Virus record (IMG/VR): IMGVR_UViG_3300046516_000137
Length of the DNA stretch: 20,000 bases
Strand: one strand, 5' to 3'
DNA from: an uncultured virus (IMG/VR IMGVR_UViG_3300046516_000137)
Lineage: Duplodnaviria; Heunggongvirae; Uroviricota; Caudoviricetes
In this document: piece by piece, positions 314 through 19,203 of the stretch
How positions within the stretch are numbered: the first letter of the stretch is position 1
How the letters are laid out: each line of letters begins with the position of its first letter
Notes under the pieces: model-generated
Told to the model about the DNA's origin: nothing
Database searches by the model: none
The model's input: only the letters and a program-made list of their open reading frames with translations
Translations under genes and position numbers: made by a program

Positions 314-337
314 AGTTGCCTCCATAGATTGTAAAAG

Positions 338-408
338 CTCCCCCACCAGGGCTCGAACCTAGACTCCGAGAGCCAAAGGCTCGTGTGCTGCCATTACACT
401 AAAGGGGA
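338..408 (-). tRNA. tRNA-Gln(UUG)
   Basis: Reverse complement folds as a cloverleaf: TCCCCTT/TGGGGGA acceptor, anticodon loop CT-TTG-GC, T loop TTCGAGC; no encoded CCA. Confidence 0.92.
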
Positions 409-412
409 AAAG

Positions 413-483
413 CTCTCCAACCTGGATTCGAACCAAGGCCAGCGAATTCAGAGTCCGCGATGCTGCCGTTACACCATTGGAGA
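413..483 (-). tRNA. tRNA-Gln(CUG)
   Basis: TCTCCAA/TTGGAGA acceptor, GCGGA-CT CTG AA-TTCGC anticodon arm, GGTTCGAATCC T arm. Confidence 0.95.
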
Positions 484-558
484 ATAAGAGGGTCGCGTAT
501 TGGGACAATTCAAACCCAAGAACCAATACCACCTACTCTAGGCGGGAAACCCAGCAAG

Positions 559-629
559 TACCGTATGCGAGAATCGAACTCGCGAACTCTGTTTGGAAGA
601 CAGATATGTTACCTCTACATCAATACGGC
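559..629 (-). tRNA. tRNA-Gly(UCC)
   Basis: GCCGTAT/ATACGGT acceptor, TCTGT-CT TCC AA-ACAGA, T arm GCGAG TTCGATT CTCGC. Confidence 0.95.
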
Positions 630-642
630 ATTATTTAATTGT

Positions 643-719
643 TGGTGGCGGAGCTTCGGAATCGCACCGAATTAACCCAGCTTATGAGACTGGTCGAGAT
701 AACTAACCTCCCGCCCGCA
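643..719 (-). tRNA. tRNA-Met(CAU), atypical, initiator-like
   Basis: CCAGT-CT CAT AA-GCTGG anticodon arm; 1:72 mismatch (U:C); bulged acceptor stem; T loop TGCGATT; encoded ACCA end. Confidence 0.8.
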
Positions 720-720
720 G

Positions 721-791
721 TAGCTGATGACAGAATTGAACTGTCGTTGACGGCTTATGAAACCGTTGTTCTGCCATTGAACTAATCAGCC
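721..791 (-). tRNA. tRNA with CAU anticodon (elongator Met, or Ile2)
   Basis: GGCTGAT/ATCAGCT acceptor, ACGGT-TT CAT AA-GCCGT, T arm GACAG TTCAATT CTGTC. Confidence 0.92.
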
Positions 792-797
792 ATACTA

Positions 798-896
798 CTA
801 GACTGAGGAGCCGAACTGCGCTACCTCAATCTTCTCGTCCTTAATAAGCTTCTCTACCTTAGCAGAGGCTCTAAGAGTCTTCAAAGGCTTACGCAT
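798..896 (-). CDS. 32 aa peptide MRKPLKTLRASAKVEKLIKDEKIEVAQFGSSV within the tRNA array
   Basis: Manual translation; AGGAGA RBS 4 nt before ATG; fills the gap between tRNA-Phe and tRNA-Met. Confidence 0.6.
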   Translation of the reverse strand: MRKPLKTLRASAKVEKLIKDEKIEVAQFGSSV

Positions 897-922
897 ATCG
901 TCTCCTTCTAGTTGTTGTAAAG

Positions 923-995
923 TGGCTCCCCCCGGATTTGAACCGAGATACATCGGGCTTCAACCGATTGCTCTACCAGGTTGAGCTAAAGAGCC
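923..995 (-). tRNA. tRNA-Phe(GAA)
   Basis: GGCTCTT/GGGAGCC acceptor, ATCGG-TT GAA GC-CCGAT, T loop TTCAAAT. Confidence 0.93.
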
Positions 996-1073
996 AATTG
1001 AGTTACTTACTTGTATTTAGCATCGTATCTATTATGTGATTTGGTGATGTCTATACGTTGATCATAACTCTAG

Positions 1074-1147
1074 TCTAGATGGCAGGATTTGAACCTGCGA
1101 CCGCCCGAATCCAAGTCGGGTACGCTACCAAACTGCGCTACATCTAG
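1074..1147 (-). tRNA. tRNA-Pro(UGG), A37 variant
   Basis: CTAGATG/CATCTAG acceptor, CCCGA-CT TGG AT-TCGGG, GCAGG TTCAAAT CCTGC. Confidence 0.95.
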
Positions 1148-1159
1148 ATTAATACTACG

Positions 1160-1231
1160 TCGGGCACCCGAGAATCGAACTCGGTTTATCCTGTTCCCAA
1201 AACAGGCGGATTACCATCTTCCTCGTGCCCG
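1160..1231 (-). tRNA. tRNA-Pro(UGG), second divergent copy
   Basis: CGGGCAC/GTGCCCG acceptor, CCTGT-TT TGG GA-ACAGG, CCGAG TTCGATT CTCGG. Confidence 0.9.
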
Positions 1232-2127: not shown

Positions 2128-2156
2128 AGTGTATCACAGACTTTTACCAAAGGAAA
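2128..2156 (-). promoter_or_regulatory. Putative leftward promoter (extended -10)
   Basis: TG-A-TACACT -10 with a weak -35 (TTTCCT) at 17 nt. Confidence 0.45.
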
Positions 2157-2254
2157 CCAACAAGATCATCCTGGAACAACAACTACTACCAGGTGAGAAA
2201 AAGACATAAAAATCACCAGATGGATTAGTTAACTACCATAGGATAGTAATAGAC

Positions 2255-2500
2255 GAGTTTTTAATACTAGTTCTATTCTCTTAGTACTAGTCTCTTCTGG
2301 TAAGTTATTTTATTCTCTTAGTATATTAGTTTTATACTAGTAATCTTCTAGTTATTTTCTTATAGAAGTTCTTTACTATAAGATTCTATTCTCTTGGTAA
2401 CTTTTTCTTCTACTAGACTTTTACTCTTCTAGTCTGTAAGCTTTTAGTCCGAAGGACTTATATACAGACTATGTTTTTTCTTCTTTTCCTCTGGTCAAGC
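2255..2500. repeat. AT-rich low-complexity region with iteron-like repeats
   Basis: TATTCTCTTRGTA at 2274, 2311 and 2387; many (TA)CTAG; T-rich top strand; no ORF. Confidence 0.6.
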
Positions 2501-2556
2501 TTCGCTAGTTGTCAAGCTTAGCACATGGTTCCAAATCTGTAAAGTCACTTGGTAGG

Positions 2557-2585
2557 TTGTCATGGGGTACGTTCTCTGGTAGAGT
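2557..2585 (+). promoter_or_regulatory. Rightward sigma70/HrdB-type promoter
   Basis: TTGTCA-17 nt-TAGAGT with TG extension. Confidence 0.65.
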
Positions 2586-2637
2586 ATCCTTTAAGGGAGA
2601 ACTGGTGGGGGTAACCAGCAAATAGAGAAGGTCACGT

Positions 2638-2808
2638 ATGAAGAACTACAGCATAGCAAACATGGATATCGGTAAGAAGGGTCCATGCATGGTTCCTGGT
2701 CATCCTAAGGAACATACTCTTGAGATGGACTGCTGGTCAACTATGAGAAGGTATTTGTTCGATCATACCTGGGCTGAATTCCTGGCTGAGGTAAACAGAA
2801 AGAAGTAA
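2638..2808 (+). CDS. Hypothetical protein (56 aa, MKNYSIANMDIG...)
   Basis: Manual translation; first ORF after the promoter, ends 4 nt before the HNH gene. Confidence 0.65.
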   Translation: MKNYSIANMDIGKKGPCMVPGHPKEHTLEMDCWSTMRRYLFDHTWAEFLAEVNRKK

Positions 2809-3412: not shown

Positions 3413-3828
3413 TGACAGGATTCTGGGAAGACGGAAATTACGGTATGGATTTTCTGGCTGCACGAAATAAAGCAGATGCCAAGAAGGCAGAAGCGGCCAG
3501 AAAGACCAAATGGGAGATAGAAGAGGAACAGCGCAATAAGCTAGCCGCTGCTCTCTGGAAAATGGAGACGCATCCTGGCAGAGACCACTGTAGTAGTTGT
3601 TTTGGCGAGTACTATGACGGCTATGCCGGTGGTGGAGTAATGATGGATGGCTACTGCTGTTGCAAGGACAATGGAATTACCGGAGTCGTTCAGCCGCTTG
3701 ACGATTATGACTATCGTGTCAAGTATCCACCAGTAAATGGAAAGGTCCCCGAAATCTTTGAAAAGTGGGGACCAAGAACACAGGAACGCTACCTGAAGAG
3801 ATTTGAAGGAGAACTAAATGGAGCATAA
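3412..3828 (+). CDS. Hypothetical protein with Cys cluster (HCSSC...YCCC)
   Basis: ORF track 3382..3828, start reassigned to the overlapping ATG 3412. Confidence 0.8.
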   Translation: MTGFWEDGNYGMDFLAARNKADAKKAEAARKTKWEIEEEQRNKLAAALWKMETHPGRDHCSSCFGEYYDGYAGGGVMMDGYCCCKDNGITGVVQPLDDYDYRVKYPPVNGKVPEIFEKWGPRTQERYLKRFEGELNGA

Positions 3829-4348
3829 TCCGATACTGCTACTGGACGTAGATGGTGTTTTAAATCCGTTTGCGGCCAAGGCTACACAGAGACCTGACGG
3901 TTATGAGACCCACAGAATGCGCCCTAATGGCTTTCTTATGCAGAATGCACTTAGAGTATGGCTTAATCCTCTGCACGGTGAGAAACTCCTGAGTCTCGGC
4001 TACGACCTTGTATGGGCAACCATGTGGGAATCCGAAGCCAACGAGTGGATCGCGCCGCATATAGGCCTTCCTGAGCTTCCTTTCATCAGTTTCAAGCACG
4101 CTAGCTGGTACGACAGGGATGGTCTGTACATCAAGACCAAGACTATTGCACAGACCATGAACGAAGAGTATGCTGGGGTACCGTTCATCTGGGTTGATGA
4201 CGAGACAACTCCCTTTGATACCAACTATCTGAGGCAGAACTGTCCCGTAAGATCAAAAATCTTTACTATTAACCCCAGAATTGGGCTAGTAGACCGAGAT
4301 TTTGATGAAATCCGAGCATACAAGGCAAAACTTATGGGATACCGATGA
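3818..4348 (+). CDS. HAD-superfamily phosphatase (Swiss-army-knife RNA-repair HAD-like)
   Basis: Motif I LLLDVDGVLN, motif II VWATMW, conserved Lys, motif IV FIWVDDE. Confidence 0.85.
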   Translation: MEHNPILLLDVDGVLNPFAAKATQRPDGYETHRMRPNGFLMQNALRVWLNPLHGEKLLSLGYDLVWATMWESEANEWIAPHIGLPELPFISFKHASWYDRDGLYIKTKTIAQTMNEEYAGVPFIWVDDETTPFDTNYLRQNCPVRSKIFTINPRIGLVDRDFDEIRAYKAKLMGYR

Positions 4349-4956: not shown

Positions 4957-5538
4957 ATGAAATATACGTACGACACGGAATTCATTGACAACGGAGAAAC
5001 CATAGAATTCTTATCCATAGGGATAGTTGCTGAAGACGGCAGGGAATACTACGCTATTACTTCTAATACTGAAGTCTTAGCCAGAGCCCGTCAGAACCCC
5101 TGGCTGAAGCAGAATGTACTAGCGCAGTTACCTATTATAGATATCGCAGACGCTGGTGGCTTCGGGTTCAACCCCAACCACGCAGACTACCAGCATGTAA
5201 AGCCAAAGCACCAGATAAAAGAAGAAATTTCGGCCTTCCTGCGGTATGAAGCGGATATAGAATACTGGGCATGGTTCGCTGCATATGACCATGTTGTACT
5301 CAGCCAACTATTTGGAAGAATGCTGGATCTTCCTATGGGATTCCCCATGTATACCAATGACATAAAGCAGGAACACAGACGACTGGGCTACCCAAGAATT
5401 CCAGAACAGGCTCAGGGGGCACACAATGCCCTGGAAGACGCTAGATGGAACATGGATACCCTGCACTACCTAGAGGCCCTAGAAAGCCCCAAAGAATCGG
5501 TTCTAGCGGCAAATCCTAAGAGAACGAGGATATGGTAA
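4957..5538 (+). CDS. DEDDh 3'-5' exoribonuclease, Rv2179c/RNase AS-like
   Basis: YDTEFI..G.TI...SIGIVAEDGREYYA, WAWFAAYDHVVLSQLFG.M..LP.G.P.YTND, HNALEDARW. Confidence 0.9.
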   Translation: MKYTYDTEFIDNGETIEFLSIGIVAEDGREYYAITSNTEVLARARQNPWLKQNVLAQLPIIDIADAGGFGFNPNHADYQHVKPKHQIKEEISAFLRYEADIEYWAWFAAYDHVVLSQLFGRMLDLPMGFPMYTNDIKQEHRRLGYPRIPEQAQGAHNALEDARWNMDTLHYLEALESPKESVLAANPKRTRIW

Positions 5539-6111: not shown

Positions 6112-6158
6112 AAAGAAGCCCTCAGTCCTTGTATAAGGAAAGAGGGCTTCTTTTATTT
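6112..6158 (+). terminator. Intrinsic terminator (possibly bidirectional)
   Basis: AAAGAAGCCCTC / GAGGGCTTCTTT 12 bp stem followed by TATTT. Confidence 0.85.
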
Positions 6159-6635
6159 GAGATACTACCCTGTATTCAGGATACTTACCTTGTACAGATC
6201 ACCATTTTATAATCGGGAAACCAGGCAGGTACCCAATCTCCCCACTAACTTTTAAAGGTCGGGGGTCGAACTATGTATATTAATGCTGAATAGACCTAAT
6301 CACGCTATGTGCAGCCCTAATGACATAGTTCGTAGTCATATTGACCCTATGTCTAATGCATAATCGGGATACTAATTGAAATTGCTTGACAAAGGGAGAA
6401 TGGTGTGGCCTGGTAATAGGGTGATATGGGTTTGAATGTAGTTAATCATGTTGGTAATGGAGTGATATACCTATTCAGTTACCAATACAGGTCATTGGAG
6501 AGTAAGTCAATAGGTATGCCAAGAGAGTATGGTCACACTTCGCACAGTCACAACGGACATAAGGTGTGGTTTGGCGTCTATGGGATATGTGTGTATGCAT
6601 TGATTAGACCATCGCAGGTCAGAGTATGTGCCAGT

Positions 6636-6674
6636 AGTGGTCTAGTCCTCATAGGTACATTGGTCTAGTCCCGT
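6636..6674. promoter_or_regulatory. Two tandem DasR-responsive-element (dre)-like boxes
   Basis: AGTGGTCTAGTCCTCA (6636) and ATTGGTCTAGTCCCGT (6659) versus the dre consensus ANTGGTCTAGACCANT. Confidence 0.5.
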
Positions 6675-6992
6675 AGGCATTATCTACGCACAGTGAAAAT
6701 CGTCTGTACAGCCCTGTGAGAGGTGAGCTGGATAGAGAGGACGTTGAGTACCAAAGGATCATGCTAGAGGGGCCAAAGAATGGATTGGTGGCTATACTTG
6801 TCAGTACTCTTGTCTCTATATGTATCTATGGTGTATATCGCTACGCTCTCCTGCGCTTCGCTTGGCCCCGAAATTTCCTGAGGGGAGTGTGTTGGGTAAC
6901 AGGTGTGCATCGGCATAACGGACATACAGGGATAGTATGGGCGCGTAGCCACTAGGTTTGGTATCGAGTCGGTAACGAAGTGGGATGAGGCT

Positions 6993-7021
6993 TTGACACG
7001 CCTCCCTACGTAGACAAGTGT
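6993..7021 (+). promoter_or_regulatory. Putative early promoter
   Basis: TTGACA-17 nt-AAGTGT (compare TAGTGT at 14051); imperfect -10. Confidence 0.5.
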
Positions 7022-7026
7022 GTGTC

Positions 7027-7365
7027 TCGCAAGGCAGCGGGGCGAACGGGAGACAGGCTGTAGCGGCCGGTTGAACGGATCGCATGACCCGCTGAGTACG
7101 GCTAACTGAATAGTGATGCGAACAGAGACAGACAGTCAGAACCTTGGCCACACCGACAACTCTTCGGAACGGGTAGGTGTCAGCCCACGACGGCGAAAGC
7201 CTATACAGCGACTGTATGTCTCGGCCATTCACTCTTGCCCATGGCAGGTAGTCCGGTGGGATCATCTGCTAGTCCCCGGAGTGAGTGGTGATCAAATGCT
7301 TAGTTCGATGCAACTTCCCGCATATGATGCGCGTCATTGTGTGTGGGTTGTTGGACCTAGCTAGG
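7027..7365 (+). ncRNA. Structured leader / candidate ncRNA
   Basis: Multiple nested stems with G-U pairs, GAAA and UUCG loops; no RBS-supported ORF. Confidence 0.5.
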
Positions 7366-7373
7366 GAGAGACC

Positions 7374-7631
7374 ATGAGCAACAAAGCAGAGCGCAAGGCA
7401 ATCGAGCGGCAGATTGTCAACAGTTACAAGGACATGAAGCTGATCCTCAAAGAGGCAGGCATGTCGCTTGACACCGACTGGAGTTACTGGCCGTTGGGTG
7501 CAAAGTGCGTTCACGCTGCCTATGCGGCACTGGGAATCGGTGTGGCATACAACCTGGGCATGGGTCAGTACAGCTATGACAGGTGCGAGCGTGTCATCAA
7601 CGGACTCCAATACAGTACGGAGCTGATCTGA
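7374..7631 (+). CDS. Hypothetical protein (85 aa)
   Basis: GGGAGAG RBS; host-like codon usage. Confidence 0.85.
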   Translation: MSNKAERKAIERQIVNSYKDMKLILKEAGMSLDTDWSYWPLGAKCVHAAYAALGIGVAYNLGMGQYSYDRCERVINGLQYSTELI

Positions 7632-7633
7632 TC

Positions 7634-7798
7634 ATGATCCTTGTTGAACTGACCAGGGAACAGCGCAAGTTCATCGCAGAGGCCACTCAGACCCGTATGG
7701 ATGCCATTCTGGCGAAGGACAGCAACGCATGGACCACAAGCGAGTATGCGGAGCTGGAAAGCCTTATGACGCAGTTGTATGTGGACTGCGCCGAATAG
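7634..7798 (+). CDS. Hypothetical protein (54 aa, MILVELTREQRKF...)
   Basis: ORF track 7583..7798, start at ATG 7634 after GGAG. Confidence 0.75.
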   Translation: MILVELTREQRKFIAEATQTRMDAILAKDSNAWTTSEYAELESLMTQLYVDCAE

Positions 7799-7800
7799 TA

Positions 7801-7872
7801 CTGACCTAGACCCGAAACGCTCTGTATGGAGCGTCTAGCCCTAGTGGAGGGCTACTGACGATGGGTCGTCAG
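7801..7872 (+). ncRNA. Type II hammerhead ribozyme
   Basis: GACCC-GAAA-CGCTC(tgtatg)GAGCG-TC^-TAGCCCT(agtgg)AGGGCTA-CTGACGA-T-GGGTC; complete catalytic core, three stems, GUC cleavage triplet. Confidence 0.9.
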
Positions 7873-7891
7873 GGAACAGAGGAGACAGACC

Positions 7892-8710
7892 ATGATCTAC
7901 ACCAGCAAGCACATCGGCGACAACGGCAGCAAGTCCAAGGTTCACGCGATGCCCGATGACAGTGTTGACGGGCACAAGGCGAAGTGCGGTCGCAAGGTGC
8001 AGTGGCTCAACAATGGTCTGTATGGCACTGACCATGAGATCACCTGTCTCCCCTGCATCAAGGTCATGGAGCGTGAGGATCGGGAGGCGAACACTGACAA
8101 GTTCATCGCCGAGTCGGATGCCCGCTTGGCTGCTGCGGGTATTAGCACTGAGGGAGAGAACATGCGCATTGTCGGCATTCAGAACTACAGCGGTGAGAAC
8201 GTGTTCACCTGTACCAACTGTGTTGCCAGTAGCTCATGGGCACGGGATGTGTTCATGGGTGAGGATGTCGTGTGCTGCACATGTGGTGAGATGCTCGGTT
8301 ATGCGGCTGATTTCAGCGCCGCGATTCGGGAGGACAAGGGTCGCAAGCTTGTTGCTGAAGAGGACCGTTGGTACATGCTGGACAAGGCTCATGGAGAGGC
8401 ACTGAAGATGAACAGTGATCTGTACATGCTGGCGCTGGCAGAGCGTCATGAGACCATCACGGACAACCGGCTTTACCACACTCCGCTGAATCGCTGGGAA
8501 TACCACATTCGCGGCCTGTACGTCTCTCTGCAAGCCATTCCGGTTATCGACTGGGTTTGCTACAGGGTGACTAAGTCGGGCAATCCCAGTAAGTCATACG
8601 AGACATACGACCTTGTGGACGCCATTGCCACGTATGAGGCCATGATCGGTGAGCACATGCACTGGCTTGAGGTCGACAGGCTTGACCGTGAGTGGCACTA
8701 CTCGCACTAG
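7892..8710 (+). CDS. Multi-module Cys-rich hypothetical protein (272 aa) with N-terminal H-CG-CxxC zinc finger
   Basis: GAGGAG RBS; KVHA...AKCG...TCLPC; CTNC...CCTCG. Confidence 0.85.
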   Translation: MIYTSKHIGDNGSKSKVHAMPDDSVDGHKAKCGRKVQWLNNGLYGTDHEITCLPCIKVMEREDREANTDKFIAESDARLAAAGISTEGENMRIVGIQNYSGENVFTCTNCVASSSWARDVFMGEDVVCCTCGEMLGYAADFSAAIREDKGRKLVAEEDRWYMLDKAHGEALKMNSDLYMLALAERHETITDNRLYHTPLNRWEYHIRGLYVSLQAIPVIDWVCYRVTKSGNPSKSYETYDLVDAIATYEAMIGEHMHWLEVDRLDREWHYSH

Positions 8711-8775
8711 ACTTGCCTCTTTAGCCATGCTGTGTGCCTCTGTATGGGGTTCACAGCGTGACTATGGGAGTATGT
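8711..8775 (+). other. Intergenic CUU/UGG hairpin (candidate mRNA processing site)
   Basis: CTT-TAGCCATGCTGTG...CACAGCGTGACTA-TGG. Confidence 0.7.
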
Positions 8776-8810
8776 CTGTACTCTCTGTCCAAAACCTCTT
8801 AGGAGACGAT

Positions 8811-12857: not shown

Positions 12858-12902
12858 CTGGTATGTCGAAGCATTACCGTCGAAAAGCAGTTAAGTACTA
12901 AA

Positions 12903-12970
12903 AAACAAGATAGAGAGTTAGGGTTAAATGAATAAACCTTAACTCTCTATTTCTGTTTATCTTTTCTTTT
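12903..12970 (+). terminator. Long AT-rich hairpin with T-rich tail (terminator/attenuator or processing stem)
   Basis: ATAGAGAGTTAGGGTT / AACCTTAACTCTCTAT followed by TTCTGTTTATCTTTTCTTTT. Confidence 0.6.
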
Positions 12971-13024
12971 AGATTAAGAGAAAAACTCTTAGTTTAAATC
13001 AGAGGGTAAATAGGAGGAGAAAAG

Positions 13025-13222
13025 ATGTATTCCTGTTACATTCATTACGATAGTGGAAGAACCTCTAAACTGACTGAAATTGACAAGTTGGATGTTGATA
13101 AGATTATCTACAGTAAAGAGAACACTCAAATCATCACACAGCATTCTCCCAATGGAGATATAACTGTTATTGATATGAGTAAGGTTTACCTGATTGAATT
13201 TCTCTGGGAGGAAAAGAAGTAG
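13025..13222 (+). CDS. 65 aa hypothetical protein
   Basis: AGGAGGAG RBS. Confidence 0.8.
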   Translation: MYSCYIHYDSGRTSKLTEIDKLDVDKIIYSKENTQIITQHSPNGDITVIDMSKVYLIEFLWEEKK

Positions 13223-13899: not shown

Positions 13900-13905
13900 A
13901 CCCTG

Positions 13906-13949
13906 AAGACCCTCTAGAACGGCTAGAAATGGCCTCTAGAGGGTCTTTT
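13906..13949 (+). terminator. Intrinsic terminator
   Basis: AAGACCCTCTAGA / TCTAGAGGGTCTT 13 bp stem plus TT. Confidence 0.75.
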
Positions 13950-14027
13950 GCGTTACGGGTGGACTCTTGGACCAACTGAGGTCTGTGAGGCTCTCAGAGG
14001 GGCCGTAGAATCAGTTTGGTACAGGAC

Positions 14028-14815: not shown

Positions 14816-14818
14816 TTT

Positions 14819-14884
14819 GTAATTCGGTTGAATTTCCTATTAGGGATAACTAAGTAATTCCTAATAGGTTATTCGGTGAATTAC
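14819..14884 (+). other. Long intergenic imperfect hairpin
   Basis: GTAATTC..GTTGAAT..CCTATTAGG / CCTAATAGG..ATTCGGT.GAATTAC. Confidence 0.6.
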
Positions 14885-14906
14885 CGACAAAGATATGAGG
14901 AGAATT

Positions 14907-19052: not shown

Positions 19053-19102
19053 AACAAAGAATCCCCTCATTACTCTTTAACCAGAGTGGTGAGGGGATTC
19101 TT
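19051..19102. terminator. Bidirectional terminator between convergent units
   Basis: AAGAATCCCCTCATTACTCT / AGAGTGGTGAGGGGATTCTT stem with flanking A tract. Confidence 0.8.
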
Positions 19103-19203
19103 GCGTGTCGGGACGGAAGCTCTGAGAGGCTGTGTACGGCTGTGGGATATCAGGGTCAGTCTCCTTGTCCAGTGAGGTGACGAGAGGCTGTGAGAGGTGC
19201 CTT

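What the first reader, a model, noticed from the sequence alone, without database searches (positions are those of the whole stretch)
7801..7872. Type II hammerhead ribozyme between two early phage genes
Seen in sequence: stem II strand GACCC (7809-13), GAAA (7814-17), stem III CGCTC/GAGCG, then U-C with predicted cleavage after C7835 (GUC triplet). Stem I is TAGCCCT/AGGGCTA, the core is CUGACGA (7855-61), followed by one inserted U and GGGTC. Stem II extends via CTGAC/GTCAG around a CTA bulge that could contact loop I. Established: this is the hammerhead core, and cleavage leaves a 2',3'-cyclic phosphate and a 5'-OH. Inference: it starts 2 nt after a stop codon and ends about 7 nt before the RBS of the 272 aa gene, so it would release that mRNA with a 5'-OH end resistant to 5'-monophosphate-dependent decay. 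That would be protein-independent processing of the early transcript.
Basis: partly seen in the sequence, partly recalled or inferred. Interest (0 to 1): 0.88.

Follow-up and report, generated by a model that had tools for sequence, protein, structure and literature searches.

The report
Type II hammerhead ribozyme between phage genes
A small self-cutting RNA (a type II hammerhead ribozyme) sits between two genes of an uncultured soil phage and most likely cuts the shared message just ahead of the next gene; such elements have been known in phages since 2011, so this is a clean but fairly ordinary example.

Summary
Positions 7801-7872 (+) carry all 13 consensus hammerhead core nucleotides and three helices in type II topology. 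One U (7862) is inserted after A9, and the predicted cut is C7835|U7836.

- Rfam RF02276 matches below its cut-off: 32.1 bits against 37, E 0.0043 for the window.
- My strict descriptor finds only this site. It finds 0 sites in 1500 shuffles of the window.
- Only two distinct relatives were found, G002 and L029. G001 is identical.
- The element is 93% identical in both relatives. The upstream ORF is 50% and 79% identical, and the spacer 33% and 53%.
- All 10 substitutions are either compensatory (2 stem I pairs) or lie in loop III or the bulge.
- The inserted U recurs in 9 of 33 pattern hits in bacterial genomes that fold as full hammerheads. The literature reports it as tolerated.

I file it as a new member of a known kind (Perreault 2011). 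This scan had already noted the same 72 nt on another genome.

Cleavage and function are inferred. No RNA data exist.

One extra feature: the 3' strand of stem II can also pair with the catalytic strand as a 7-bp hairpin. That could be an on/off state or a product-release switch.

The parts
7634..7798 (+). Upstream 54-aa ORF (true start ATG 7634, stop TAG 7796-98). It is the only neighbour conserved in all three ribozyme-bearing phages.
   Evidence: 44% (G002) and 74% (L029) amino-acid identity. No Pfam or PHROG family.
7801..7805 (+). Distal stem II, 5' strand CUGAC. It pairs with 7868-7872.
   Evidence: 5 of 5 pairs formed in 3 of 3 sequences, all invariant.
7806..7808 (+). 3-nt bulge C-U-A in the 5' strand of stem II. 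Candidate pseudoknot partner of U7845-G7847 in loop I.
   Evidence: U7807 is C in L029 (U.G to C-G). One one-sided change only, so this is not proven.
7809..7813 (+). Proximal stem II, 5' strand GACCC (C7813 = C11.1).
7814..7816 (+). Core G12 A13 A14.
   Evidence: matches the consensus GAAA. Invariant in 3 of 3 sequences.
7817..7834 (+). Stem III hairpin (A15.1-U16.1 plus 6 further pairs, loop GUAU 7824-27).
   Evidence: 7 of 7 pairs formed in 3 of 3 sequences. 5 of the 10 substitutions fall in its 4-nt loop.
7835..7836 (+). Predicted scissile bond: C17 (7835) | U1.1 (7836).
   Evidence: Position follows from the family consensus. Cleavage itself was not tested.
7836..7854 (+). Stem I hairpin (7 bp, loop AGUGG 7843-47). 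It would be the exact 5' end of the downstream product.
   Evidence: two pairs change on both sides in G002 (A-U to G-C, G-C to U-G).
7855..7861 (+). Core C3 U4 G5 A6 C7 G8 A9 (CUGACGA).
   Evidence: Invariant in 3 of 3 sequences.
7862..7862 (+). Extra U between A9 and G10.1.
   Evidence: One search shows it as an insert state. 9 of 33 genome pattern hits that demand this U fold as complete hammerheads. A U at this position raised the rate of the CChMVd hammerhead (passage in PMC3705267).
7863..7872 (+). 3' strand of stem II: GGGUC (G7863 = G10.1) plus GUCAG.
7855..7872 (+). Alternative 7-bp hairpin, CUGACGA paired with UCGUCAG with loop UGGG. It sequesters the catalytic strand and is mutually exclusive with stem II.
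   Evidence: -9.4 kcal/mol. 0 of 300 shuffled tails do as well (1 of 300 in each of G002 and L029).
7879..7884 (+). Shine-Dalgarno-like GAGGAG of the next gene, 6 nt after the ribozyme and 7 nt before the ATG.
   Evidence: GAGGAG in G002 and GGGGAG in L029 lie at like distances, while the rest of the spacer is 33% and 53% identical.
7892..8710 (+). Downstream 272-aa ORF of unknown function.
   Evidence: no family, and 1 other homologue in 5.8 billion proteins. The N-terminal 84 aa are 71% identical in L029. G002 has an unrelated 402-aa ORF here.
6112..6185 (+). Terminator-like hairpin with a U-run (6112-6160) and a promoter-like site (6157-6185). Probable start of the transcription unit that holds the ribozyme.
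   Evidence: gap 6112-6425 folds with z -5.4. (TTGAGA-17-GATACT, 9 of 12; promoter-like sites are no more frequent than in shuffles). Weak evidence.

Best explanation
Positions 7801-7872 encode a genuine type II hammerhead ribozyme inside a polycistronic + strand transcript of an uncultured soil or rhizosphere phage.

**Fold (shown by sequence and calculation).** Once transcribed, the RNA folds into a three-way junction. Stem II is 5 + 5 bp around a CUA bulge and has an open end. Stem III is a 7-bp hairpin. Stem I is a 7-bp hairpin.

**Cleavage (inferred from the family).** The consensus core catalyses attack of the 2'-OH of C7835 on its own 3' phosphate. This cuts between C7835 and U7836.

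**Products (ends inferred; folds of the product sequences calculated).**
- The upstream piece carries the five small ORFs from about 6426 to 7798. It ends in the stem III hairpin with a 2',3'-cyclic phosphate.
- The downstream piece begins exactly with the stem I hairpin and a 5'-OH. A second hairpin can form next (CUGACGA paired with UCGUCAG). Then come 6 free nucleotides, the Shine-Dalgarno site and the 272-aa ORF.

**Net effect (inferred).** Protein-independent separation of the two halves of the operon, so that their stability and translation are uncoupled. This is what Perreault et al. 2011 proposed for phage and prophage hammerheads.
For: **Anatomy and statistics**
- Core and stems are complete. 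The MFE fold equals the hammerhead fold, z -3.19.
- RF02276 gives 32.1 bits, E 6e-5 on 281 nt, 0.0043 on the window and 5.6e-6 on the 112,630-bp record G001. The relative G002 gives 35.5 bits, E 6.3e-7.
- The descriptor finds 1 site in the window and 0 in 1500 shuffles.

**Conservation**
- The element is 67/72 (93%) identical in G002 and in L029.
- The upstream ORF is 50% and 79% identical, and the spacer 33% and 53%.
- All 27 proposed pairs form in all 3 distinct sequences: 81 of 81 cells. The same pairs slid by 1-3 columns give 35-49%.
- Two stem I pairs change on both sides. The other 6 substitutions lie in loop III (5) and the bulge (1). None lies in the core, stem II, stem III or loop I.
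- The position is syntenic: directly after the homologous 54-aa ORF and 6-7 nt before a Shine-Dalgarno site in all three. In G002 the downstream gene is unrelated.

**The inserted U**
- 9 of 33 genome-contig pattern hits fold as complete hammerheads with this U.

**Family precedent**
- Passages of PMC3088659: type II hammerheads are common in bacteria and prophages, and processing of long phage transcripts was proposed.
- PMC8782182 (abstract and passages): three predicted type II hammerheads near phage-like genes of Desulfovibrio vulgaris were detected as cleaved in vivo.
Against: - It scores below Rfam's gathering threshold in both genomes (32.1 and 35.5 against 37 bits). The default scan misses it.
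- The canonical type II pseudoknot, loop I with the 3' tail just after a short stem II, is not present in that form. Only 3-bp alternatives exist.
- Only 3 distinct sequences are known. Covariation statistics are therefore weak: 54 of 500 column shuffles reach the observed score. Stems II and III never vary.
- There are no RNA data. No RNA run is listed, and the four DNA runs laid did not cover the element.
- A near-isoenergetic alternative fold sequesters the core: -34.4 against -33.3 in the window, -37.0 against -34.5 in G002, and -34.7 against -34.7 in L029.
- After cleavage the products would remain joined by stem II, about -13 kcal/mol. Physical separation needs ribosomes, helicases or refolding.
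- Only one hammerhead was found per genome. Perreault 2011 described arrays that flank genes.
Confidence: 0.8

Rival explanations
1. Same ribozyme, but with a built-in conformational switch. The 3' strand of stem II (UCGUCAG, 7866-72) pairs either with the 5' strand, giving the active hammerhead, or with the catalytic strand CUGACGA (7855-61), giving a local 7-bp hairpin. The hairpin would be one of two things. It could be an OFF state, favoured for instance while a ribosome terminating at 7796-98 covers the 5' strand, so that only a set fraction of transcripts is cut. Or it could be a lock that forms after cleavage, displaces the upstream fragment and blocks religation.
For: - The hairpin is perfect and gives -9.4 kcal/mol. 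0 of 300 (window), 1 of 300 (G002) and 1 of 300 (L029) shuffled tails pair 5 or more core nucleotides as stably.
- It is the MFE fold of the 3' product. It is equal to or better than the hammerhead fold in the full context of all three homologues.
- Stem II is invariant in all three sequences while stem I covaries. This fits a strand constrained by two partners.
- Among the 9 other hammerheads with the inserted U, core-pairing hairpins appear in L040 (0/300), L065 (2/300), L052 (3/300) and L049 (12/300).
Against: - There is no covariation, because the strands are invariant.
- 4 of the 9 other hammerheads show no significant core-pairing hairpin (L038, L044, L048, L066), and L046 pairs only 3 core nucleotides.
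- The energies omit the pseudoknot and the tertiary core, which favour the active fold.
- The hairpin could be a by-product of a distal stem II strand that happens to read CUGAC.
- The linked idea that the freed 5' strand masks the Shine-Dalgarno site failed its test.
Confidence: 0.25
2. One reading: the cut gives the 272-aa gene's message a 5'-OH end that escapes 5'-monophosphate-dependent decay, so the downstream message is stabilised.
For: - Geometry: the 3' product starts at the first paired base of a 7-bp hairpin with no single-stranded 5' overhang. A second hairpin can follow.
- From established knowledge, not tested here: 5'-terminal hairpins and ends without a monophosphate hinder 5'-end-dependent entry of RNase E.
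- Review PMC6765202 (passage) says ribozyme processing of polycistronic transcripts could give transcripts of different stability or translation efficiency, and that further work is needed.
Against: - In B. subtilis the 5'-OH product of the glmS ribozyme is a substrate of RNase J1 and is rapidly degraded (passage in PMC3328962).
- The host is unknown. The nearest homologues of the neighbouring DnaQ-like exonuclease are in phages of Gordonia, Streptomyces and Mycobacterium, at 49-55% identity. From my own recall, those hosts carry RNase J.
- No stability or expression data exist.
Confidence: 0.3
3. A conserved structured intergenic RNA that only resembles a hammerhead and does not cut itself. 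It could be a protein-binding site, an RNase III or other nuclease site, or an inactive relic.
For: - The Rfam score is below threshold.
- There is an extra U in the core region.
- The canonical tail pseudoknot is absent, and Perreault 2011 found that pseudoknot critical for fast cleavage in the construct tested (passage).
- A competing fold sequesters the core.
Against: - All 13 consensus core nucleotides are present and invariant in three sequences whose flanks are 50-79% identical. A purely structural element would not need unpaired junction bases to stay fixed.
- 0 chance matches in 1500 shuffles.
- The inserted U recurs in 9 other complete hammerheads and is reported as tolerated.
Confidence: 0.08

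Closest known systems
Type II hammerhead ribozymes of bacteria, prophages and phages (Rfam RF02276; Perreault et al. 2011, PMC3088659, passages read)
   Same: - Same consensus core, and same permuted topology: stems I and III capped, stem II open.
- Same intergenic position in a phage gene cluster.
- Loop I contains UGG, as in the Rfam consensus.
- The proposed role, processing of long phage transcripts, is the one already in print.
   Different: - Stem II is long (5 + 5 bp with a 3-nt bulge in the 5' strand) rather than the frequent 2-bp stem followed by a tail.
- The consensus 3' tail that pairs with loop I is absent. The candidate partner of UGG is the 5'-strand bulge C(U/C)A, or a 3-nt UCA in the 3' strand.
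- There is one extra U after A9.
- Only one copy per genome was found, not an array.
- The score is 5 bits under the Rfam cut-off.
Hammerheads with an extra nucleotide between A9 and G10.1 (CChMVd plus-strand hammerhead, De la Pena and Flores 2001, seen only as cited in PMC3705267; Penelope-like element hammerheads, PMC4209133)
   Same: One inserted nucleotide at the same place. A U there was the most active variant in the CChMVd study as summarised in PMC3705267.
   Different: Those are viroid and retroelement hammerheads of eukaryotic hosts, with other tertiary contacts. This one is a phage type II form.
Type II hammerheads with the inserted U in bacterial genomes and MAGs (L038, L040, L044, L046, L048, L049, L052, L065, L066)
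   Same: - Same core with CUGANGA-U-GGG.
- Some sit right after a stop codon or ahead of a GGAG-like site (print).
- L049 and L052 also have a distal CUGA/UCAG extension of stem II beyond a bulge.
   Different: - The stem sequences are unrelated.
- In L049 and L052 the bulge is on the 3' strand.
- Their stem II is 4-5 bp.
- No sequence homology to the window beyond the motif that the pattern demanded.
glmS ribozyme (5'-OH product degraded by RNase J1; Collins et al. 2007, seen only as summarised in PMC3328962)
   Same: A self-cleaving RNA in a bacterial mRNA whose cut leaves a 5'-OH on the coding part.
   Different: A different fold, and it needs a metabolite cofactor. It lowers expression. 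It is named here only as a counter-example to the assumption that a 5'-OH end protects.

Membership tests
Hammerhead ribozyme, type II (RF02276; criteria of Perreault 2011) | Consensus core C3 U4 G5 A6 N7 G8 A9 / G12 A13 A14 / A15.1 U16.1 H17 without substitution | tested here: met
   CUGACGA 7855-61, GAA 7814-16, A7817, U7834, C7835. Invariant in 3 of 3 distinct sequences.
Hammerhead ribozyme, type II (RF02276; criteria of Perreault 2011) | No mispair next to the core (10.1-11.1, 1.1-2.1, 15.1-16.1) | tested here: met
   G7863-C7813, U7836-A7854 and A7817-U7834. This holds only if U7862 is read as an insertion. Read as 10.1 it would give a U.C mispair.
Hammerhead ribozyme, type II (RF02276; criteria of Perreault 2011) | Three helices around the core; stems I and III closed by loops, stem II open (type II permutation) | tested here: met
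   MFE fold. 81 of 81 cells paired across 3 sequences.
Hammerhead ribozyme, type II (RF02276; criteria of Perreault 2011) | Helices supported by compensatory change | tested here: inconclusive
   Stem I has 2 of 7 pairs changed on both sides. Stems II and III have 0 of 17 pairs varying. With 3 sequences, 54 of 500 shuffles reach the observed covariation score.
Hammerhead ribozyme, type II (RF02276; criteria of Perreault 2011) | Score at or above Rfam's gathering threshold of 37 bits (an operational cut-off, not a structural requirement) | tested here: not met
   32.1 bits in the window and G001 and 35.5 bits in G002. In the alignment the mismatching parts are the 3' tail, the shorter stem I and the inserted U.
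Hammerhead ribozyme, type II (RF02276; criteria of Perreault 2011) | Tertiary contact between stem I and stem II (in most type II forms a pseudoknot of 4 or more bp between loop I and the 3' tail; about 40% of all hammerheads use a pseudoknot; not obligatory) | tested here: inconclusive
   There is no complement of 4 or more bp in the tail. Two 3-bp options exist: bulge C-U/C-A 7806-08 with U7845-G7847 (one one-sided change), or U7869-A7871 with the same UGG (read).
Hammerhead ribozyme, type II (RF02276; criteria of Perreault 2011) | Site-specific self-cleavage giving 2',3'-cyclic phosphate and 5'-OH ends | not testable with these tools
   No RNA run is listed. The DNA contigs laid did not cover the site.

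The most novel reading that the evidence does not exclude
The ribozyme carries its own toggle. The distal 5' strand of stem II repeats the first five letters of the catalytic strand (CUGAC). The 3' strand can therefore pair with either partner. One pairing gives the active hammerhead. The other gives a 7-bp hairpin that buries the catalytic strand.

This would let translation termination at the stop codon 2 nt upstream, or simply folding kinetics, set what fraction of transcripts is cut. After the cut it would snap the downstream message into two 5' hairpins, expel the upstream piece and prevent religation.

Similar core-pairing hairpins in several unrelated type II hammerheads with the inserted U hint that this could be a general, so far undescribed design feature of intercistronic hammerheads. 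I ran one literature search on inactive or alternative conformations. None of its 12 listed titles (of 131 papers that held 4 of the 5 terms) is on this point. That is not proof that it is unpublished.
Probability: 0.25. Interest if true: 0.5.

Novelty: new member of a known kind. Interest (0 to 1): 0.22.

Why it matters
What bacterial and phage hammerheads do is still an open question. Review PMC6765202 (passage) says further work is needed.

This example adds little that is new in kind, but it is compact and well defined. It is a single ribozyme wedged between a stop codon and a ribosome-binding site. Its sequence is far better conserved than either neighbouring gene.

It also shows three things of practical use:
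- Real hammerheads sit just below Rfam's cut-off when they have the extra U and lack the consensus tail.
- The extra U after A9 recurs in nature.
- Some such ribozymes carry a competing hairpin over the catalytic strand. This is cheap to test and could explain how product release or partial cleavage is controlled.

Tried and rejected
- **RBS masking.** In the alternative fold the freed 5' strand of stem II appeared to pair with the Shine-Dalgarno and start region in all three homologues. The pairing is no better than with other RBS regions of this window: 19, 7 and 14 of 37 pair at least as well. It is also no better than shuffled spacers: 260, 141 and 398 of 500. Rejected.
- **RNA evidence.** No RNA holder is listed. 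Four DNA runs laid (X6, X8, X9, X15) gave only short, identical contig pieces that leave 7768-7894 uncovered. They show no variants and no ends.
- **More homologues.**
  - Viral-contig scans with two DNA patterns, the downstream protein and an alignment of the upstream ORF returned only G001 and G002.
  - Of 11 loci around DnaQ-like exonuclease relatives, 2 carry the element (L005 = G001, L006 = G002) and 9 do not.
  - Whole-record RF02276 searches of G003-G006 found nothing at E <= 1, but three of those four records are fragments.
  - Of 13 metagenome pattern hits, 2 pass the descriptor: L029, and L022, which is the same contig as G002. The other 11 fail.
- **Cultured phages.** No DNA match to 7300-8800 or 7790-7895 beyond two 22-nt chance hits. 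No protein match for the 272-aa or the 502-aa ORF.
- **Function of neighbours.** No Pfam or PHROG family for either flanking ORF.
- **RNA-repair link.** There is no RtcB in G001 or G002. An RNA_ligase-family ORF (PF09414) exists far from the ribozyme. No connection is shown.
- **Weak Rfam rows.** Ocean-VII at 7862-7890 (11.4 bits against 53.5) and mir-3914 at 12936-13028 are chance-level.
- **Other ribozymes.** No second hammerhead or other ribozyme family appears in the window at E <= 5.

Full report
**1. Observation**

- Stem II has a distal part, CUGAC 7801-05 with GUCAG 7868-72, and a proximal part, GACCC 7809-13 with GGGUC 7863-67. A CUA bulge (7806-08) in the 5' strand separates them.
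- G12 A13 A14 lie at 7814-16.
- Stem III runs from A7817 to U7834.
- C17 is C7835.
- Stem I is UAGCCCU/AGGGCUA (7836-42 and 7848-54), with loop AGUGG.
- The catalytic strand is CUGACGA (7855-61), followed by one extra U (7862).
- The upstream stop codon TAG ends 2 nt before the element. GAGGAG starts 6 nt after it.

The minimum-energy fold of 7799-7874 is this three-way junction: -33.3 kcal/mol, z -3.19, and 1 of 200 shuffles folds as well.

**2. Is it more than chance?**

Rfam's default scan of the window lists only seven tRNAs.

With relaxed filters, Hammerhead_II (RF02276) matches 7810-7872 end to end at 32.1 bits. The gathering score is 37. The E-value is 6e-5 on 281 nt and 0.0043 on the 20-kb window. 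It is the only ribozyme row among 10 rows at E <= 5.

Sub-threshold hits to this model are common at loose E-values. The built-in control rang in 11 of 14 well-known genomes at E <= 10, and in 6 of 14 at E <= 1. The score alone is therefore not enough.

I wrote a descriptor that demands the full core, C11.1/G10.1, A15.1-U16.1, a non-G at position 17 and three uninterrupted stems, and allows an optional 1-nt insertion after A9. It finds one site in the window (7809-7867, + strand). It finds none in 1500 dinucleotide-preserving shuffles scanned on both strands, with either strict or relaxed stem lengths.

**3. Relatives**

The window's own assembly is not held. The nearest record, G001, is 112,630 bp and estimated complete. 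It is 100% identical over 401 nt around the element. Its DnaQ-like exonuclease is only 68% identical, so it is a mosaic relative.

Two distinct relatives were found.
- G002 is a 101,046-bp viral contig. It has an RF02276 match at 35.5 bits, E 6.3e-7, about 2.2 kb downstream of its DnaQ-like gene, as in the window.
- L029 lies on a 4,171-bp metagenome contig. It was one of 13 pattern hits. 2 of the 13 pass the descriptor, and the other one is G002's own contig.

Other searches gave nothing more. Four viral-contig scans returned only G001 and G002. 9 of 11 loci around exonuclease relatives lack the element. Cultured phages have no match.

**4. Pattern of conservation**

| Region | Identity to G002 | Identity to L029 |
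|---|---|---|
| Element, 7801-7872 | 67/72 (93%) | 67/72 (93%) |
| Upstream ORF | 50% | 79% |
| Spacer to the start codon | 33% | 53% |

(All values.)

The upstream 54-aa ORF starts at ATG 7634, not at the GTG that the ORF list gave. It is homologous in all three phages, at 44% and 74% amino-acid identity.

The downstream gene is a homologue only in L029. There the N-terminal 84 aa are 71% identical and the rest is unrelated. In G002 it is replaced by an unrelated 402-aa ORF.

The 10 substitutions in the element fall as follows:
- 4 form two compensatory pairs in stem I (A-U to G-C, and G-C to U-G);
- 5 lie in the 4-nt loop of stem III;
- 1 lies in the bulge;
- none touches the core, the inserted U, stem II, the paired part of stem III or loop I.

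All 81 pair cells are standard pairs. With the partners slid by 1-3 columns only 35-49% are. With three sequences the shuffle control is weak, since 54 of 500 shuffles reach the observed score. The compensatory evidence is real but thin.

**5. The deviations from the consensus**

*The extra U after A9.* A pattern that demands it (CUGANGA-U-GGG with CCCGAAAC and GUC) gave 33 hits in prokaryote genomes. I expected about 30 by chance. 9 of the 33 fold as complete type II hammerheads, in MAGs of several phyla. The insertion is therefore a recurring natural form.

A review passage reports that the CChMVd hammerhead has an extra A at this place and that changing it to U raised the trans-cleavage rate 3-4 fold (PMC3705267). 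I did not read the primary paper, De la Pena and Flores 2001. [quoted passage not shown]

*The tertiary contact.* Perreault et al. describe a pseudoknot between loop I and the tail just 3' of a short stem II (PMC3088659). Here loop I keeps UGG, but the tail has no complement of 4 or more bp. Two 3-bp options exist.
- The bulge C7806-U7807-A7808 could pair with U7845-G7847. In L029 U7807 is C, which turns a U.G into a C-G.
- U7869-A7871 could pair with the same UGG, but only if the distal stem II opens.

One one-sided change cannot decide between them.

**6. Mechanism**

*Shown.* The sequence can fold as a consensus hammerhead and is under selection to keep doing so.

*Inferred from the family.* Cleavage 3' of C7835 gives a 2',3'-cyclic phosphate and a 5'-OH.

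*Shown by calculation.*
- The upstream product ends in the stem III hairpin.
- The downstream product begins at the first paired base of the stem I hairpin and can form a second hairpin.
- The two products remain held by stem II, with about -13 kcal/mol relative to the refolded pieces.

*Context, weak evidence.* A terminator-like hairpin at 6112-6160 and a promoter-like site at 6157-6185 suggest that the transcription unit starts near 6190. The ribozyme would then split five small ORFs from the larger ones that follow.

*Inferred.* The cut uncouples the fate of the two halves. This is the published proposal for phage hammerheads (PMC3088659; review PMC6765202). In vivo cleavage of three predicted type II hammerheads near phage-like genes of D. 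vulgaris has been detected (PMC8782182).

**7.

Protection by a 5'-OH end cannot be assumed. The 5'-OH product of the glmS ribozyme is degraded by RNase J1 in B. subtilis (PMC3328962).

The host is unknown. The runs that hold this DNA are rhizosphere, soil and root metagenomes. The nearest homologues of the DnaQ-like exonuclease are in phages of Gordonia, Streptomyces and Mycobacterium, at 49-55% identity.

If anything protects the new 5' end, the flush 5' hairpin is the likelier agent. 'Early' expression is plausible from the layout but untested.

**8. An extra feature**

The strand UCGUCAG (7866-72) is perfectly complementary to the catalytic strand CUGACGA (7855-61) as well as to the 5' strand of stem II.
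- The resulting 7-bp hairpin gives -9.4 kcal/mol. It beats 300 of 300 shuffled tails in the window, and 299 of 300 in each of G002 and L029.
- It is the MFE structure of the downstream product.
- In the full context the hairpin fold is as stable as the hammerhead fold or more so. The hammerhead fold against the hairpin fold gives -33.3 against -34.4 in the window, -34.5 against -37.0 in G002 and -34.7 against -34.7 in L029. These energies include no pseudoknot or tertiary terms.
- Among the 9 other hammerheads with the inserted U, L040, L065, L052 and L049 show comparable core-pairing hairpins. L038, L044, L048 and L066 do not. L046 pairs only 3 core nucleotides.

This could be an OFF state or a post-cleavage lock. 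The strands are invariant, so covariation cannot test it.

A linked idea failed its control. It held that the freed 5' strand masks the ribosome-binding site.

**9. Verdict**

This is a genuine type II hammerhead by every structural criterion I could test. It sits just below Rfam's operational cut-off. It belongs to a small, previously uncatalogued sub-family confined so far to a few uncultured soil phages.

It is a new member of a known kind. This scan already noted the same 72 nt on another genome and judged it ordinary, and it holds some 400 notes on hammerheads. Interest is low to moderate. The competing hairpin is the only part that might repay an experiment.

Noticed in passing
window 337-1231 (-): Array of 8 tRNA genes by ARAGORN: Gln-ttg, Gln-ctg, Gly-tcc, two Met-cat, Phe-gaa and two Pro-tgg. 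Rfam's gathering scan lists 7 of them and misses 647-718. G001 and G002 carry many more tRNAs upstream.
   Followed up: partly
window 2150-2640: AT-rich non-coding region between the minus-strand tRNA array and the plus-strand gene cluster. It holds three copies of a roughly 28-nt direct repeat (TTCTATTCTCTTAGTA..., at 2271, 2308 and 2384) and other short repeats. It may be a promoter or operator region.
   Followed up: no
window 3818-4348 (+) and 4957-5538 (+): A HAD_SAK_2 protein (a HAD domain of 'Swiss Army Knife' RNA repair proteins, E 2.4e-8) and a DnaQ-like / Rv2179c-like 3'-5' exonuclease (PHROG 'Rnase H', E 6.5e-55) lie 2-4 kb upstream of the ribozyme. G001 and G002 have an RNA_ligase-family ORF (PF09414) but no RtcB. 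No link to the ribozyme's cyclic-phosphate and 5'-OH ends is shown.
   Followed up: partly
window 6112-6160, 12900-13020, 13900-13950, 14816-14894, 19053-19103 (+): Several intergenic gaps hold very stable hairpins. Gap z-scores are -5.4, -6.9, -3.9, -5.8 and -7.3. Some are followed by U-runs, so they are probably terminators that divide the plus-strand cluster into transcription units. The consensus terminator scan missed them.
   Followed up: no
window 7892-8710 (+); L029 3-515 (-): The 272-aa ORF after the ribozyme is a near-orphan. It has one other homologue at E <= 0.001 among 5.8 billion proteins. It is modular: its cysteine-rich N-terminal 84 aa are 71% identical to the L029 protein, whose remainder is unrelated. 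The ribozyme lies at a mosaic junction, since G002 has an unrelated gene in this place.
   Followed up: partly
L038, L049, L052 (Alphaproteobacteria MAGs); L040, L046; L044, L066; L048; L065: Nine complete type II hammerheads with the extra U after A9 were found in bacterial genome contigs. I did not run them against Rfam, so I do not know whether they reach its cut-off. In L038, L049 and L052 the ribozyme starts at a UGA that may be the upstream stop codon. L049 and L052 also have a distal CUGA/UCAG extension of stem II.
   Followed up: partly
window 7796-7804 (+): The upstream ORF ends in a tandem in-frame stop, TAG TAC TGA. The second stop lies inside the distal stem II strand. It is not conserved in G002.
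   Followed up: no
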